Source: Promethearchaeota archaeon (lineage in GTDB: Archaea > Asgardarchaeota > Lokiarchaeia > Sigyniarchaeales > SOKP01). Taken from it: a stretch of DNA of 33,209 nucleotides. The stretch spans positions 1 to 33,209 of the forward strand of contig JAGXNO010000039.1 of the NCBI GenBank assembly GCA_019894975.1, given 5' to 3'. The notes beneath the pieces were generated by a model. It was not told where the DNA came from and made no database searches. It saw only the letters and a program-made list of their open reading frames with translations. This document shows, piece after piece, positions 4,994 to 32,990 of this stretch; the stretch's first letter is position 1; every line of letters starts with the position of its first letter. The position numbers were made by a program, and so were the translations under genes.

Positions 4994-5488
4994 CTAAATC
5001 TTTTCCCCACATTCTTCACAGAATTTTAGACTCTCTATGTTATTCAACTTAGCGCCACAATTAGCACAAAAGTTTGGGTTTTTAGGTAAGGAAGATCCTT
5101 TTTCCAATATTTCATACTCAAAAGTTTCTTTTTCTTGCACTGTGTGTTTAAGCTCAATATTACAATTGTCGCAAAATTTAGTGTCGGCAGGTATATATCT
5201 TCCACATGAAAGGCACCTAAACCAGAGTTTTTTACCACAGTTTCTGCAGAATTCGCCATATTTACTAACAGGAGCATTACACCGAAGACACGTCTTATCT
5301 TCTAACCAGAAGTAGTGAGACATTAACTTTATTATAATCAATAAGAAAAATGAAATAGGAAGTAAAATCAACCATAATGGATTTAGTAATAAAGAGAACA
5401 AAATTGAAATGACTGTAATTAGAACAAAAATTAAAAGCCCTATTACCAAATTGCTTCTATTCTTTACACTTTTAGGATTGAAGCTCAC
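4994..5488 (-). CDS. Membrane-anchored zinc-ribbon (DZR-like) protein
   Basis: Two N-terminal TM helices followed by six CxxC pairs (CLRC, CRNC, CLSC, CDNC, CANC, CEEC). Confidence 0.85.
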   Translation of the reverse strand: MSFNPKSVKNRSNLVIGLLIFVLITVISILFSLLLNPLWLILLPISFFLLIIIKLMSHYFWLEDKTCLRCNAPVSKYGEFCRNCGKKLWFRCLSCGRYIPADTKFCDNCNIELKHTVQEKETFEYEILEKGSSLPKNPNFCANCGAKLNNIESLKFCEECGEKI

Positions 5489-5565
5489 AAAAATAACTTT
5501 GTTTTATAATTTTATTTATAGGAATTATAATTATACATTAACTTTAAGATATTTGGGTACGATAA

Positions 5566-5715
5566 TTAGCGGATATTAGTTTTGCAATAGGGACAAATTT
5601 CAGTATCCTTTTCAATTTGCTCCCCACACGCAAAACATACTATAGTATTAATCCCGAATAATATTTTTTCTTCATCCTTTTCAATAAGGCTATTCTCAGA
5701 TCCTTTCTCAGACAT
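5566..5715 (-). CDS. Small zinc-ribbon protein (49 aa), missing from the ORF track
   Basis: ATG at 5715 to TAA at 5566: MSEKGSENSLIEKDEEKILFGINTIVCFACGEQIEKDTEICPYCKTNIR, with CxxC-x10-CxxC. Same strand as the adjacent DZR gene. Confidence 0.8.
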   Translation of the reverse strand: MSEKGSENSLIEKDEEKILFGINTIVCFACGEQIEKDTEICPYCKTNIR

Positions 5716-5881
5716 AATTCCACTTCAAAATTAGATTGTATATGTTTAAAAATATCAATAATAAATTTAATAAAAAATTGGAGTCCGATCTTTAATCGTC
5801 GCATTTAACAACAAAATTTAAGAGTTTAGAATTATTTCTTTCTTCATATAATAAATATAAAATTGAGATGATAAAAAATAA

Positions 5882-6119
5882 ATGCCTGGTTCACATGGGT
5901 CTCTAACTAAAGCTGGAAACTAATACAAAATTATTGTATTTAGCTAGAAAAGTTAAAATGCAGACCCCTAAAATTGAAAGGTCAGGAGTAAATTCTAAAA
6001 AGAAGAAACCTCCGAGGATGCGATTTCGAGAGTTATATAAAGCTCGGGTTGTCGGTGGTCGGTTTGGCGGTCAACAGGATAGTTTAGGAGCTAAACGAGC
6101 CCAGTTTTCAAGAAAATAA
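5882..6119 (+). CDS. rps30e: 30S ribosomal protein eS30 (S30e), split: join(5882..5918,5950..6119), 68 aa
   Basis: Exon 1 encodes MPGSHGSLTKAG and exon 2 encodes KVKMQTPKIERSGVNSKKKKPPRMRFRELYKAR. Joined, they give the eS30 signature HGSLxxAGKVxxQTPK...PR..R..Y. The two halves lie in different frames, separated by 31 nt. Confidence 0.92.
5919..5949 (+). other. Putative BHB/BHL-type mRNA intron (31 nt) in rps30e
   Basis: Central helix CUGG(5913-16)/CUAG(5944-47). AAA segments at 5917-19 and 5948-50. Intron hairpin CUAA-UACAA/UUGUA-U-UUAG. Exon-exon helix UAACU/AGUUA. Cutting after the 2nd nt of each AAA restores the frame. Confidence 0.85.
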
Positions 6120-6132
6120 ATAATTTTTCTCA

Positions 6133-8019
6133 TTATTCATTTACTCTTATTTTTTGAAGTTGATTTTTTAGTTTTTGACTTTCTTTCATATAAAATTGTG
6201 ATTTTTGGTTATTTCGTAAAATTAACTTGCAATAATCACTCATTAAAAAATTCCAACGAATAGCTTTTTCTATTCTATTTATTTCTTTAGGAGAAAGCCG
6301 GTTTTCAAGACTATTTAGATAATATATTGCCTTTTTGGAATCTCTTCTATGGTGAATATAGAATTCAGCTAATTCTAGGATATAGTCAATCAAAACATTC
6401 TGATGATCGTTATTCTCGAAATTAATATCAGCATTAGTAAATCCTGCTTTGAGAAATCTCTGAGTTTGTGAGATATTTCCTTGATTTTTAAATCTTATTG
6501 CACGATTTAAAAAGTATTTTAATTTAACTTTAGGAGATTTATTTCCAATTTCGATAACTTTCTTAAAATAATCTTTTGAATCAGGAATCTTATTTTGTTC
6601 TAAATTAATTAATCCTAGATACAAGTATGCCATCCCAATATAATCTGCCTTAATATTAGGAATATTTTCATTTTCCAAGAAATTGATATTTATTTTGAAG
6701 TGATTTAATGCATTTTCAAACTCCTTTTTCTTGAAATAACTAATTCCTAGTTTATGATGAATTTTAATGATATAATCTATTGGCACTTCTCCCGATTTTG
6801 CAACGCCTAAAGCACTTTGTAAGTAATTATGAGCCATTTCTTCATTACCCATTAGATAAGCAATTTTTCTTAATTTCAGCAGTATTGAAACAACCACTTT
6901 CTTTTGTTGATTTTTATTAAAGATTTTCAAAGATTCATTTAATAAGGAAGTCGCTTTATCAAAATTATACTTCTTAATAAGTTCTTCTGCTTCTGTGTAC
7001 AAATTCATAGTTTCAATTACTTCAAAATTTGTTGGAGGTTTGTTAAACAGGACAATATGAAAAGGAAATAACTCCTTTGCTATTGAACCTTCATAACACA
7101 GTGCTGAAAATGGAAAGTTATTTTGTTCTGATACAAATTTACTTCTGTATATTAATTCTTTTGAAGGTCTGAAGTTTAAAAGTTCACTTTGTAAGATTTT
7201 TTCACTTTCGACTAGTTCTATAATAGAATTTAAAATCATTCTGGAAAATTTAATCCAATTATCTACTAATTCCTCCAATTTAAATTCAGGTACCTGATCA
7301 AATAAACTATTTAATATATAGGATGAATAGCTATCAAACGAGCCCCTGATGTAAAATTTTTTGTATTCGATATCTTTAAAATATGAAAAGTAGCCCTTTT
7401 CAAGTATAAAAAATTCATTAAACTCATCCTCATTTGAGAAGAATAAGGTTTCAGATGTTCTGAGTTTAGGAACTCCATCTTTTAGTTCCCAAGGTAATTT
7501 AAAAGTTGGTTCTAATCCGACGTTACGAAGTGAGGATACTATACTATTGTGCTGTTCATTTGTATAATCTTGTAATTGATCTCTTTTATTCAAGAGTGAA
7601 GTTCTGATTCGATTTAGCCATGTATTCTCGTTTTCACCCTTTATTAGTTCTGGCATTATCAAATTTAATAAAGAAATAAGCTTTTGTTCTCTCTGATTAA
7701 TAGGAAAATTATGTTCCAAAGTAAGAGATATTGCCAGGCTTCTAAGAGCTTTTATTAGATAAAGGATGGTAGTAAAGGAATTTTGATTTAAATTCCATAT
7801 TTGAAAAGCTATGGAGACTCGAAAACTTACCACTTCAAATGGGACATTAAGTCTTAATGGGAGAGTTATAGGAAATTTTATTGTAAAAATGATAATCTTC
7901 TCTTTTTTTAGGCTGTATCGGAAATAGTTTTCTACATCTCCATTCAATTTCCATCCGTTCTTTTCAATTACTTCTCGTAGATTTTTAATTTCGTTTGAAG
8001 AAAATGGTTTTAGTGACAT
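6133..8019 (-). CDS. Tetratricopeptide-repeat protein with an uncharacterised N-terminal region
   Basis: C-terminal TPR-like repeats (HHKLGISYFKKKEFENALNHFK; AYLYLGLINLEQNKIPDSKDYFKKVIEI). Confidence 0.75.
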   Translation of the reverse strand: MSLKPFSSNEIKNLREVIEKNGWKLNGDVENYFRYSLKKEKIIIFTIKFPITLPLRLNVPFEVVSFRVSIAFQIWNLNQNSFTTILYLIKALRSLAISLTLEHNFPINQREQKLISLLNLIMPELIKGENENTWLNRIRTSLLNKRDQLQDYTNEQHNSIVSSLRNVGLEPTFKLPWELKDGVPKLRTSETLFFSNEDEFNEFFILEKGYFSYFKDIEYKKFYIRGSFDSYSSYILNSLFDQVPEFKLEELVDNWIKFSRMILNSIIELVESEKILQSELLNFRPSKELIYRSKFVSEQNNFPFSALCYEGSIAKELFPFHIVLFNKPPTNFEVIETMNLYTEAEELIKKYNFDKATSLLNESLKIFNKNQQKKVVVSILLKLRKIAYLMGNEEMAHNYLQSALGVAKSGEVPIDYIIKIHHKLGISYFKKKEFENALNHFKININFLENENIPNIKADYIGMAYLYLGLINLEQNKIPDSKDYFKKVIEIGNKSPKVKLKYFLNRAIRFKNQGNISQTQRFLKAGFTNADINFENNDHQNVLIDYILELAEFYIHHRRDSKKAIYYLNSLENRLSPKEINRIEKAIRWNFLMSDYCKLILRNNQKSQFYMKESQKLKNQLQKIRVNE

Positions 8020-32771: not shown

Positions 32772-32990
32772 TTACTTATATTTGATAGATAAGAGCAAGT
32801 CGTTCTTTGTAATTTTCTTTCTATTCGCATGCATGGTAAAGGTACGTGCTTGTTCAGTTAATGCGGTTGCAGTCTTTTCTAAATGATCAATTAATAAATC
32901 TACTGCGTTTCGAGCTACGATTGATGCACCCTGTTGTTTCATTAATCTCCTGATAGGAGACCATGCAAAGGAATGTTTCTTTTTAGCCAT
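32772..32990 (-). CDS. Archaeal histone (HMf-like histone fold)
   Basis: PIRRLMKQQGASIVARNAV...A...TMHANRKKITKNDL. SD GGAGG at 33000-33004. Confidence 0.93.
   Translation of the reverse strand: MAKKKHSFAWSPIRRLMKQQGASIVARNAVDLLIDHLEKTATALTEQARTFTMHANRKKITKNDLLLSIKYK

What the first reader, a model, noticed from the sequence alone, without database searches (positions are those of the whole stretch)
5882..6119. Candidate tRNA-endonuclease-type (BHB/BHL) intron in the mRNA of ribosomal protein eS30
Seen in the sequence: ATG at 5882 reads MPGSHGSLTKAG-N-stop (TAA 5921-23). The rest of eS30 (KVKMQTPK...PPRMRFRELYKAR) resumes 31 nt later in another frame. The insert folds as a 4-bp helix CUGG/CUAG flanked by two AAA segments (5917-19 and 5948-50). 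An intron hairpin CUAA-UACAA-[AAUUA]-UUGUA-U-UUAG closes one side. An exon-exon helix UAACU(5904-08)/AGUUA(5951-55) closes the other, across an AAAG loop, which makes this a bulge-helix-loop. Established knowledge: archaeal EndA cuts after the 2nd nt of each 3-nt bulge. Applying that rule removes 5919-5949 and gives GCU GGA A|AA GUU, which is the conserved AGKV and a full 68-aa eS30. The well-characterised archaeal mRNA intron of this kind is the crenarchaeal cbf5 intron; I know of none reported in an Asgard ribosomal protein gene. Inference: producing this ribosomal protein depends on EndA/RtcB splicing. That could couple ribosome biogenesis to tRNA-splicing capacity or allow autoregulation. 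Automated annotation would call a truncated 61-aa ORF.
Basis: partly seen in the sequence, partly recalled or inferred. Interest (0 to 1): 0.95.

Follow-up and report, generated by a model that had tools for sequence, protein, structure and literature searches.

The report
tRNA-type mini-intron in Asgard eS30 gene
The only gene for ribosomal protein eS30 in this Asgard (Promethearchaeia) genome is split by a 31-base insert shaped like an archaeal tRNA intron. Relatives keep the shape through compensating mutations, so the mRNA almost certainly has to be cut and rejoined by the tRNA-splicing enzymes. The papers I searched report such an intron inside a coding sequence for only one other archaeal gene, cbf5.

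Summary
Exon 1 (5882-5918) encodes MPGSHGSLTKAG. A 31-nt insert (5919-5949) brings a stop and a frame change. Exon 2 (5950-6119) continues KVKMQTPK.

The insert has a 4-bp helix CUGG/CUAG, two AAA bulges, an intron hairpin and an exon-exon helix. Cutting after the second base of each bulge gives an intact 68-aa eS30.

- It is the only eS30 gene in the genome.
- Six other assemblies carry a 30-32-nt insert at exactly this site: four same-genus genomes and two metagenome contigs. All have compensatory changes in every variable helix.
- All five genus copies splice to intact proteins under purifying selection (pN/pS 0.13-0.23).
- New here: intron-bearing alleles use unusual codons that build a further 6-9-bp exon1-exon2 helix, absent from intronless sisters.
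- A second, unrelated 30-nt insert lies 10 nt upstream in two genomes of another Asgard family.
- The genome encodes a two-paralog EndA and RtcB.
- Frameshifting and ribosomal bypassing fail in 4 of 7 copies.
- No RNA data were available, so splicing itself is inferred.
- This scan has already noted eS30 inserts in two other genomes, and other such inserts in this genome.

Verdict: a new member of a known kind.

The parts
5882..5918 (+). Exon 1 of rps30e (eS30): 12 codons MPGSHGSLTKAG plus the first two bases (AA) of the Lys-13 codon
   Evidence: The peptide is identical to the N-terminus of more than 90 uninterrupted relatives. The five intron-bearing copies differ only synonymously here.
5919..5949 (+). 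31-nt intron: the last base of bulge 1, the hairpin h', the 3' strand of helix H, and the first two bases of bulge 2
   Evidence: Removing it gives GCU GGA AAA GUU and an intact 68-aa protein. Inserts of 30-32 nt lie at the same site in six other assemblies.
5950..6119 (+). Exon 2 of rps30e: the last base of the Lys-13 codon, then VKMQTPK...AQFSRK and stop TAA 6117-6119
   Evidence: Pfam Ribosomal_S30, profile positions 11-47, E 2.2e-5 for exon 2 alone. It is the only match in the genome.
5913..5916 (+). Helix H, 5' strand CUGG (exon 1); pairs with 5944-5947
   Evidence: All four pairs form in 5 of 5 sequences, with G-U changed to G-C in one.
5944..5947 (+). Helix H, 3' strand CUAG (intron)
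5917..5919 (+). Bulge 1 (AAA), a true 3-nt bulge between H and h'. Predicted 5' cut between 5918 and 5919.
   Evidence: The relative L140 has AAU here, and only a cut after the second base restores Lys.
5920..5943 (+). Intron hairpin h': CU / AAUACAA, loop AAUUA, UUGUAUU / bulged U / AG
   Evidence: Six of its nine aligned pairs change on both sides among relatives.
5948..5950 (+). Bulge 2 (AAA). It faces AAAG 5909-5912, so it is an internal loop and not a bulge. Predicted 3' cut between 5949 and 5950.
   Evidence: Relatives have AGA or AUA here, and only a cut after the second base restores the AAA Lys codon.
5904..5908 (+). Exon-exon helix h, 5' strand UAACU; pairs with AGUUA 5951-5955
   Evidence: 96% of cells paired, with an A-U / G-C / G-U change at synonymous sites of the Leu and Val codons.
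5951..5955 (+). Exon-exon helix h, 3' strand AGUUA
5897..5903 (+). Outer exon-exon helix P0, 5' strand GGGUCU(C), in the Gly6-Ser7 codons. It pairs with AGACCC 5962-5967, and C5903 pairs with G5960.
   Evidence: Minimum-energy fold of the 99-nt context. Equivalent helices in the other intron-bearing alleles are absent from intronless sisters.
5960..5967 (+). Outer exon-exon helix P0, 3' strand, in the Gln-Thr-Pro codons of exon 2

Best explanation
rps30e is interrupted by a 31-nt splicing-endonuclease intron of the relaxed bulge-helix-loop (HBh') form. The steps below are inferred, not observed.

1. The pre-mRNA folds so that two exon-exon helices bring the splice sites together: P0 (5897-5903 with 5960-5967) and h (5904-5908 with 5951-5955).
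2. The 4-bp helix H and the intron hairpin h' present the 5' site in a true 3-nt bulge. The 3' site sits in a 3x4 internal loop.
3. The genome's two-paralog EndA resembles the crenarchaeal (alpha-beta)2 type, the type known to accept relaxed motifs. It would cut after the second base of each bulge (5918|5919 and 5949|5950).
4. RtcB would join the exons to GGA-AAA-GUU, and probably circularise the 31-nt intron.
5. The spliced mRNA encodes the full 68-aa eS30. Unspliced mRNA yields only a 13-aa peptide.

Shown here: the anatomy, its conservation and covariation, the uniqueness of the cut rule, selection on both exons, and the presence of the enzymes. Inferred: the cleavage and ligation themselves.

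The intron is polymorphic among close relatives. It seems to move or disappear by replacement of a roughly 100-nt tract through recombination.
For: - **Product.** Removal gives an intact 68-aa eS30. The four other same-genus copies give 67-69 aa, within the 66-72 range of uninterrupted relatives.
- **Single copy.** There is one S30 match in a 95%-complete genome.
- **Same site elsewhere.** Inserts of 30-32 nt lie at the same site in G018, G013, G050 and G052 and in metagenome contigs L140 and L165.
- **Covariation.** 93% of cells pair against 46% or less for slid partners; 7 pairs change on both sides; 0 of 500 shuffles reach this.
- **Cut rule.** Bulge 2 is AAA, AGA or AUA and bulge 1 is AAA or AAU. 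Only a cut after the second base restores the invariant Lys in all seven.
- **Selection.** pN/pS is 0.13-0.23 at pS 0.44-0.67, with exon 1 included.
- **Exon-exon pairing.** Duplex energy averages -16.4 kcal/mol in the 5 intron-bearers against -7.3 +/- 2.1 in 73 intronless alleles. It is stronger in all 5 comparisons with the nearest intronless relatives. One copy carries a compensatory CUG-to-UUG with CAG-to-CAA change.
- **Folds.** Minimum-energy folds of the longer context give the full motif in 4 of the 5 genus copies and in L140.
- **Enzymes.** EndA alpha-like and beta-like paralogs and RtcB are present.
- **Parallel cases.** An independent 30-nt insert lies 10 nt upstream in another Asgard family. 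In my hand reading of its RNA, the cut rule restores SLTKAG. rnhB of this genome carries a similar 30-nt insert.
Against: - There is no RNA evidence. The single run found held only a relative's uninterrupted form, which is uninformative.
- Folding energy of the local 65-nt motif is not significant on its own (z = -1.2).
- The 3' site is not in a canonical bulge, because AAAG lies opposite it. Cleavage therefore needs a relaxed-specificity enzyme, and no Asgard EndA has been characterised biochemically, according to the 2026 preprint.
- Two of seven copies do not give the motif as their minimum-energy fold: L073 and L165, which has a weak CUGG/CUGG helix H.
- The five genus sequences are related, so the shuffle statistics overstate independence.
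- All the data come from metagenome-assembled genomes; G000 has 8.6% estimated contamination.
Confidence: 0.87

Rival explanations
1. The two frames are joined during translation, with no RNA cut. This would be either a programmed +1 ribosomal frameshift near GGA-AAC-UAA, or ribosomal bypassing of the hairpin as in phage T4 gene 60.
For: In the window, L063 and L073 the exon-2 frame stays open back across the whole insert, so a single +1 shift before the stop is geometrically possible. A stop codon followed by a hairpin, and GCU both before and after the insert, recall a bypass site. An earlier scan note, e1-5590504, raised an alternative mechanism on these grounds.
Against: In 4 of 7 copies no single shift can join the frames. 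In L032, L033 and L140 stops in both frames leave no overlap, and L165 is a 30-nt in-frame insert ending in UAA. L033 has UAA in the exon-2 frame directly before GUU. Landing on the second GCU would give non-conserved ARK or ARE in place of the invariant AGK. Neither model explains the covarying helix H, the fixed 2-nt offset of the junctions from H, or the exon-exon helices.
Confidence: 0.03
2. The gene is a decaying pseudogene. eS30 would then be dispensable, or supplied from an unassembled copy.
For: The genome is 95% complete, not closed, with 8.6% contamination. G013 holds a second, divergent and uninterrupted S30 gene.
Against: There is one match only in the genome. Both exons are under purifying selection across five species whose synonymous sites are nearly saturated. 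No further stops or indels occur. The insert keeps its length to within 1 nt, its position and its structure. Of the 400 Asgard genomes sampled, 354 have an S30 match, including 85 of the 90 high-quality ones.
Confidence: 0.04
3. The insert is removed from the RNA, but not by EndA and RtcB. Another nuclease and ligase, or an unknown ribonucleoprotein, would recognise the hairpin.
For: The 3' site is not in a canonical bulge. No Asgard EndA has been tested, according to the 2026 preprint. The local fold is weak.
Against: The junctions sit exactly two bases 3' of each strand of a 4-bp helix in all seven copies. I read the same geometry in the independent Hermod-type insert and in rnhB. This is the defining EndA geometry. 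The genome has the two-paralog EndA, whose alpha-like member best matches catalytic subunits of heterotetrameric crenarchaeal enzymes. That type cleaves relaxed motifs outside a tRNA context (PMC2738675).
Confidence: 0.05
4. The insert is an assembly or sequencing artefact.
For: The window comes from a metagenome-assembled genome.
Against: Seven assemblies, from differently named isolates and samples, carry an insert at the same base. Their insert sequences are 19-52% different among the five genus copies, yet structurally equivalent.
Confidence: 0.01

Closest known systems
BHB/relaxed-BHB intron in the cbf5 (pseudouridine synthase) pre-mRNA of Crenarchaeota (Desulfurococcales, Sulfolobales; Watanabe 2002; Yokobori 2009, PMC2738675)
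   Same: Both are short protein-free introns inside a coding sequence. Both often carry a relaxed cleavage motif, occur in hosts with hetero-oligomeric EndA, and show a patchy lineage distribution with secondary losses.
   Different: The gene differs (a ribosomal protein), as does the phylum (Asgard/Promethearchaeota). There is no sequence relationship. Here an additional long exon-exon helix is written into synonymous codon positions. Presence or absence also differs between genomes that are 97-100% identical in the flanks, with a recombination-like tract around the intron.
Non-canonical tRNA introns of Thermoproteales and Asgard archaea (Marck and Grosjean 2003; preprint 10.64898/2026.10.13.758758)
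   Same: The hBHBh' / HBh' geometry and the size range are the same. The presumed enzymes are the same too: the preprint reports two EndA paralogs in 44 of 60 Asgard genomes.
   Different: The host RNA is an mRNA. The exon parts of the motif must therefore also encode a conserved peptide, and splicing changes the reading frame.
BHB intron in the 5' UTR of HVO_1309, Haloferax volcanii (PMC7714728)
   Same: An mRNA is processed by the splicing endonuclease. This was shown by circRNA-seq and in vitro cleavage.
   Different: That intron lies in the untranslated leader and does not interrupt the coding sequence. It is euryarchaeal and 46 nt long.
Unconventional HAC1/XBP1 mRNA splicing in eukaryotes (named as tRNA-type splicing in PMC4090602; details from my own knowledge)
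   Same: It works alike. A small structured intron is cut by an endonuclease at stem-loop sites and the exons are rejoined by a tRNA ligase, which changes the reading frame. From memory, the XBP1 intron is 26 nt and its ligase is RtcB.
   Different: The endonuclease is IRE1, not the tRNA-splicing endonuclease. That splicing is a regulated stress response; no regulation is shown here.

Membership tests
Archaeal splicing-endonuclease (BHB / relaxed BHL) intron | A 4-bp central helix H, with one strand in the 5' exon and the other at the 3' end of the intron | tested here: met
   CUGG 5913-5916 pairs with CUAG 5944-5947. All four pairs form in 5 of 5 aligned copies and by inspection in L140 and L165.
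Archaeal splicing-endonuclease (BHB / relaxed BHL) intron | Two 3-nt bulges on opposite strands, each directly 3' of its strand of H | tested here: inconclusive
   Bulge 1 (5917-5919) is a true 3-nt bulge between H and h'. Bulge 2 (5948-5950) has 3 nt but faces AAAG 5909-5912, making a 3x4 internal loop. This meets the relaxed HBh'/BHL definition, not the strict hBHBh' one.
Archaeal splicing-endonuclease (BHB / relaxed BHL) intron | Cuts after the second base of each bulge give a functional product | tested here: met
   The rule restores the GGA-AAA-GUU junction, and an intact protein was computed for all seven same-site copies. With bulges AGA, AUA or AAU no other symmetric cut restores Lys. 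The rule itself is taken from established knowledge of the canonical 37/38 tRNA intron.
Archaeal splicing-endonuclease (BHB / relaxed BHL) intron | Flanking helices h (exon-exon) and h' (intron), supported by covariation | tested here: met
   In h' six of nine pairs change on both sides. In h one pair changes on both sides. Overall, 0 of 500 shuffles are as good. A further exon-exon helix P0 is present.
Archaeal splicing-endonuclease (BHB / relaxed BHL) intron | The host encodes EndA of a type that accepts relaxed motifs, and an RtcB-type ligase | tested here: met
   There are two EndA-domain ORFs of 202 and 200 aa. The first best matches PDB chains 3p1z_B, 3ajv_B and 2zyz_B. I recall these as catalytic subunits of heterotetrameric crenarchaeal EndA. 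RtcB is present at E 6e-169. Substrate range is inferred from the type and was not measured.
Archaeal splicing-endonuclease (BHB / relaxed BHL) intron | A spliced RNA and an excised (circular) intron are observed | not testable with these tools
   No RNA run holding this organism was listed. The one run laid gave only a relative's uninterrupted sequence.
Translational bypass (T4 gene 60 type) or +1 programmed frameshift | Matched take-off and landing codons, or an open overlap of the two frames, conserved among copies | tested here: not met
   No overlap window exists in 4 of 7 copies. L033 has UAA in the landing frame. A GCU landing would give non-conserved residues.
Self-splicing group I / group II intron | A ribozyme core of hundreds of nucleotides | tested here: not met
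   The insert is 31 nt. No Rfam family matches 5600-6300 at E up to 1.

The most novel reading that the evidence does not exclude
The eS30 intron is one visible member of a lineage-wide population of roughly 30-nt tRNA-type mini-introns in essential protein genes of Promethearchaeia and other Asgard archaea. These would be gained and lost by exchange of short recombination tracts between close relatives, and stabilised by helices written into synonymous codon positions. The closest archaeal relatives of eukaryotes would then routinely splice mRNAs with the tRNA-splicing machinery. Producing ribosomal proteins would depend on EndA and RtcB capacity.
Probability: 0.55. Interest if true: 0.9.

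Novelty: new member of a known kind. Interest (0 to 1): 0.74.

Why it matters
In the papers I could search, splicing-endonuclease introns inside archaeal coding sequences are reported only for crenarchaeal cbf5, plus one 5'-UTR case in Haloferax.

Finding one in the single copy of a ribosomal protein gene of an Asgard archaeon has three consequences:

- **Biology.** mRNA splicing by the tRNA machinery would be obligatory for ribosome production in the archaeal group closest to eukaryotes.
- **Annotation.** Gene callers truncate such genes (here 61 aa in place of 68) or call them split.
- **Evolution.** The allele comparisons add two testable ideas. First, exons adapt their synonymous codons to clamp the splice sites. 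Second, intron presence or absence is exchanged between near-identical genomes as a short recombination tract. Both bear on how introns are gained, fixed and lost.

A second, independent insertion 10 nt away in another Asgard family, and a similar insert in rnhB of this genome, suggest a wider phenomenon.

Tried and rejected
- **RNA evidence.** One public run was listed (X1), holding 5% of the words, kept as contigs and probably DNA; no RNA holder was listed. Laid on 5600-6400 it gave a 244-nt contig from a relative about 93% identical. That contig reads GSHGSLTKAG-KVKM without the insert. It could be an intronless relative's DNA or a spliced RNA, so it is uninformative.
- **Exact pattern search.** A pattern for intron-bearing alleles found 0 hits in metagenome contigs. 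The protein-guided search that followed found two.
- **Screens without homology.** I screened the genome for bulge-helix-bulge motifs that join open frames. Real and decoy counts were equal (11,629 against 11,948, and still equal at 120-codon flanks), because adjacent genes pass the filter. The same screen on the window alone was equally noisy. Both were abandoned, so I made no genome-wide count.
- **Rfam.** No family matched 5600-6300.
- **Mobile repeat.** The intron has no other copy in the genome, so it is not a repeat family.
- **Target-site duplication.** It follows largely from the near-palindromic helix H and the two A-rich bulges. It is weaker in L033 (CCAG, AUA), and I see none in the Hermod-type insert (H = GCUU/GAGU), so I do not read it as a duplication.
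- **Ser codon AGU as a marker.** Rejected as a marker of intron-bearing alleles, because intronless alleles also use AGU.
- **Failed call.** A first attempt to search with the Hermod-type exon 2 failed because the query was one codon too short; it was corrected.
- **Broader S30 loci.** Among the loci fetched (other Asgard lineages, Bathyarchaeia and Nitrososphaeria-type archaea), 16 of 80 passed my contiguity pattern. Those I read by eye also looked contiguous, and I saw no interruption.

Full report
**The observation**

The window reads ATG 5882, MPGSHGSLTKAGN, stop at 5921-5923. The rest of eS30 (KVKMQTPK...) continues 31 nt later in the +1 frame. It matches Pfam Ribosomal_S30 only from profile position 9-11 onward. 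A mechanical ORF list gives just a 61-aa TTG ORF at 5934-6119.

- CUGG 5913-5916 pairs with CUAG 5944-5947.
- AAA lies at 5917-5919 and at 5948-5950.
- UAACU 5904-5908 pairs with AGUUA 5951-5955 across AAAG.

The minimum-energy fold of 5898-5962 reproduces them, with a slightly different register inside the hairpin. On energy alone the fold is no better than shuffles (z = -1.2). The case therefore has to be made comparatively.

**Gene copy and organism**

The genome (G000, 3.9 Mb, 95% complete, 8.6% contamination) has one S30 match, this one. Titles of related records name Promethearchaeota/Promethearchaeia, formerly Lokiarchaeia, which are Asgard archaea.

**Relatives**

Of the 54 genomes of the genus, 46 have an S30 match. 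In five of these the match starts only at profile position 8-10: G000, G013, G018, G050 and G052. Nearly all other matches begin at position 3. G013 also has a short match starting at position 3, described under "Seen in passing".

Reading the DNA shows a 31-nt insert at exactly the same base in the other four. More than 90 related loci read MPGSHGSLTKAGKV without interruption. A protein-guided scan of metagenome contigs added two more same-site inserts, of 32 nt (L140) and 30 nt (L165); 60 of the 64 loci there were uninterrupted.

**Structure and covariation**

On the alignment of the five genus copies (A1) I named the structure h / loop / H / bulge / h' / H / bulge / h. It has 93% of cells paired, against 20-46% when the 3' partners are slid. 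Seven pairs change on both sides, and no shuffle in 500 reaches the observed values.

- Helix H never breaks; G-U becomes G-C once.
- The first pairs of h' run C-G/U-A, U-A/C-G/U-G and A-U/C-G/U-A.
- In h, the third base of the Leu codon and the third base of the Val codon covary (A-U, G-C, G-U).
- L165 has an unrelated hairpin (UUUUAAAAG/CUUUUAAAA) at the same site.

**The cut rule**

Bulge 2 is AAA, AGA or AUA. Bulge 1 is AAA or, in L140, AAU. Cutting after the second base of each bulge is the geometry that places canonical tRNA introns at 37/38 (established knowledge). It gives GGA-AAA-GUN, that is AGKV, in all seven. Cutting after the first or third base would give Glu, a stop or a frame error in several of them. 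All five genus copies then encode intact proteins of 67-69 aa.

**Selection**

Among the five, pS is 0.44-0.67 and pN/pS is 0.13-0.23. Exon 1 is identical as a peptide but differs at synonymous sites. These are working genes whose two halves are linked only if the insert is removed.

**New here: an outer exon-exon helix**

Intron-bearing alleles use GGG-AGU-CUG (or GGG-AGU-UUG, or GGG-UCU in the window) for Gly6-Ser7-Leu8, and GCU for Ala11. The nearest intronless relatives mostly use GGU-UCN-YUA and GCA. These odd codons pair with the Gln-Thr-Pro codons of exon 2:
- GGAGUCUG/CAGACUCC in L033, L063, L073 and L140.
- GGGAGUUUG/CAAACUCCU in L032, which is a double compensatory change.
- GGGUCU/AGACCC in the window (5897-5902 with 5962-5967).

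Exon1-exon2 duplex energy averages -16.4 kcal/mol in the five, against -7.3 +/- 2.1 in 73 distinct intronless alleles. It is stronger in each of five comparisons with the nearest intronless relatives. Folds of the 99-nt context give the whole motif (P0, h, loop, H, bulge, h', bulge) as the minimum-energy structure in four of the five genus copies and in L140.

**Rivals**

- **Frameshift.** A single +1 frameshift is geometrically possible in three copies but impossible in four.
- **Bypass.** Bypassing to the second GCU would give non-conserved residues and meets UAA in L033.
- **Pseudogene.** The single copy and the selection pattern argue against it.
- **Artefact.** Seven assemblies carry the insert.
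- **Ribozyme.** No Rfam family matches, and 31 nt cannot hold a ribozyme.

**Machinery**

The genome encodes two EndA-domain proteins. One retains the Tyr/His/Lys-type catalytic motif by eye. Its best matches are PDB chains 3p1z_B, 3ajv_B and 2zyz_B, which I recall as catalytic subunits of heterotetrameric crenarchaeal EndA. The other lacks the His and looks structural. RtcB is present.

A 2026 preprint reports two EndA paralogs in 44 of 60 Asgard genomes, together with heavily interrupted tRNA genes. Consistent with that, ARAGORN finds only 16 tRNAs in this genome, six of them with introns of 9-30 nt. Hetero-oligomeric EndA is the type known to cleave relaxed motifs outside tRNA (PMC2738675). 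That matters because the 3' site here is a loop, not a bulge.

**Distribution and history**

I built a tree from the conserved 628-aa neighbour gene, which is syntenic in more than 80 loci. On it the five intron-bearers are scattered. Each groups with intronless genomes, and five changes are needed. The S30 exon tree agrees.

The closest pair is telling. L063 (intron) and L062 (none) are 97-100% identical over 2 kb, except for a tract of about 100 nt around the intron. There the exons differ at 12 of 60 sites, against 5 of 132 in the rest of the gene. Within the tract L063 resembles the distant intron-bearer L033, while L062 resembles its intronless cousin L015.

I infer that the intron is gained or lost by recombinational replacement of a short tract. 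Selection for the exon-exon helices may add to the pattern. The direction cannot be fixed; parsimony on this subclade favours gain in L063. The intron has no other copy in the genome.

**A second site**

In another Asgard family, two genomes (G162, G164) carry a 30-nt insert 10 nt upstream. Their nearest named relatives are Hermodarchaeota. The insert is in-frame in length but contains two TAG codons.

I read it as H = GCUU/GAGU, a true bulge AC|G, a 9-bp hairpin, and AA|A. The product is CUU-ACA-AAA-GCU, which is SLTKAG, as in intronless relatives. The local fold has z about -3 and also shows exon-exon helices. However, its minimum-energy form uses an alternative register of H.

**Context in this genome**

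The only RNase HII gene has a 30-nt in-frame insert with TAA that splits GIDEAGR|GPVIG. I read H = UGGG/CCUA and bulges AG|A and AA|A.

Earlier notes of this scan list eS30 inserts in two other genomes, and further candidates in this genome: cdhC, dnaG, cdhD, a histone and others. I used them as leads only. Of these I checked rnhB, and I rejected the alternative mechanism that one of them raised.

**Literature and verdict**

In the library searched, coding-sequence introns of this kind are reported only for crenarchaeal cbf5, plus a 5'-UTR intron in Haloferax. I found nothing on Asgard mRNAs.

I judge this a real, relaxed bulge-helix-bulge intron in an essential Asgard ribosomal protein gene: a new member of a known kind. 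Splicing itself is still unobserved. Any regulatory role (coupling ribosome output to splicing capacity, or autoregulation) is untested speculation.

Noticed in passing
L102:384-413 (G162) and the matching place of L103 on the minus strand (G164): A second, unrelated 30-nt bulge-helix-bulge-type insert lies in rps30e of another Asgard family (nearest named relatives are Hermodarchaeota), 10 nt upstream of the window's site. I read H = GCUU/GAGU, bulges AC|G and AA|A, and a 9-bp hairpin. Its length is in-frame but it holds two TAG codons. The splice product SLTKAG equals that of intronless relatives.
   Followed up: partly
L117:2067-2103, minus strand (G000 contig C94, rnhB): The only RNase HII gene of this genome has a 30-nt in-frame insert (I*FISNYILK) that splits the catalytic motif GIDEAGR|GPVIG. 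I read H = UGGG/CCUA, bulges AG|A and AA|A, and an intron hairpin. This is another candidate mRNA intron in the same genome.
   Followed up: partly
L063:300-480 compared with L062: Two genomes 97-100% identical over 2 kb differ by presence of the eS30 intron and by a tract of about 100 nt of diverged exon sequence around it. In that tract the intron-bearer resembles a distant intron-bearer (L033). It looks like a gene-conversion or lateral allele replacement tract.
   Followed up: partly
L049:1455-1475 (isolate DZ1S.179): The rps30e of this relative has two extra bases (GGG-GA-AGC where relatives have GGG-AGC), which shift the frame of the first 12 codons. This is either an assembly error or a real frameshift. 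It is not an intron-like insert.
   Followed up: no
L034 (G013 contig C172, about 97756-97848, minus strand): G013 has a second, uninterrupted but divergent S30 gene (KVRQQTPILESTG...) on a 101-kb contig, beside its intron-bearing copy on C120. It is either a paralog or contamination from another lineage (the genome has 6% contamination).
   Followed up: no
G000, whole genome: ARAGORN finds only 16 tRNA genes in a 95%-complete genome, six of them with introns of 9-30 nt. Most tRNA genes probably escape detection because they carry several or non-canonical introns, as a 2026 preprint describes for Asgard archaea.
   Followed up: no
window 4994-5715 (-) and 6133-8019 (-): rps30e sits in a neighbourhood conserved in more than 80 related loci. 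On one side are two small zinc-ribbon-like proteins (164 aa and 49 aa, with CxxC pairs). On the other is a 628-aa repeat protein, which I used here as a phylogenetic marker.
   Followed up: partly
window 32790-32960 (-): An uninterrupted histone-fold gene (Pfam CBFD_NFYB_HMF, E 1e-7) lies near the end of the window. It is one of five histone-fold matches in the genome.
   Followed up: no
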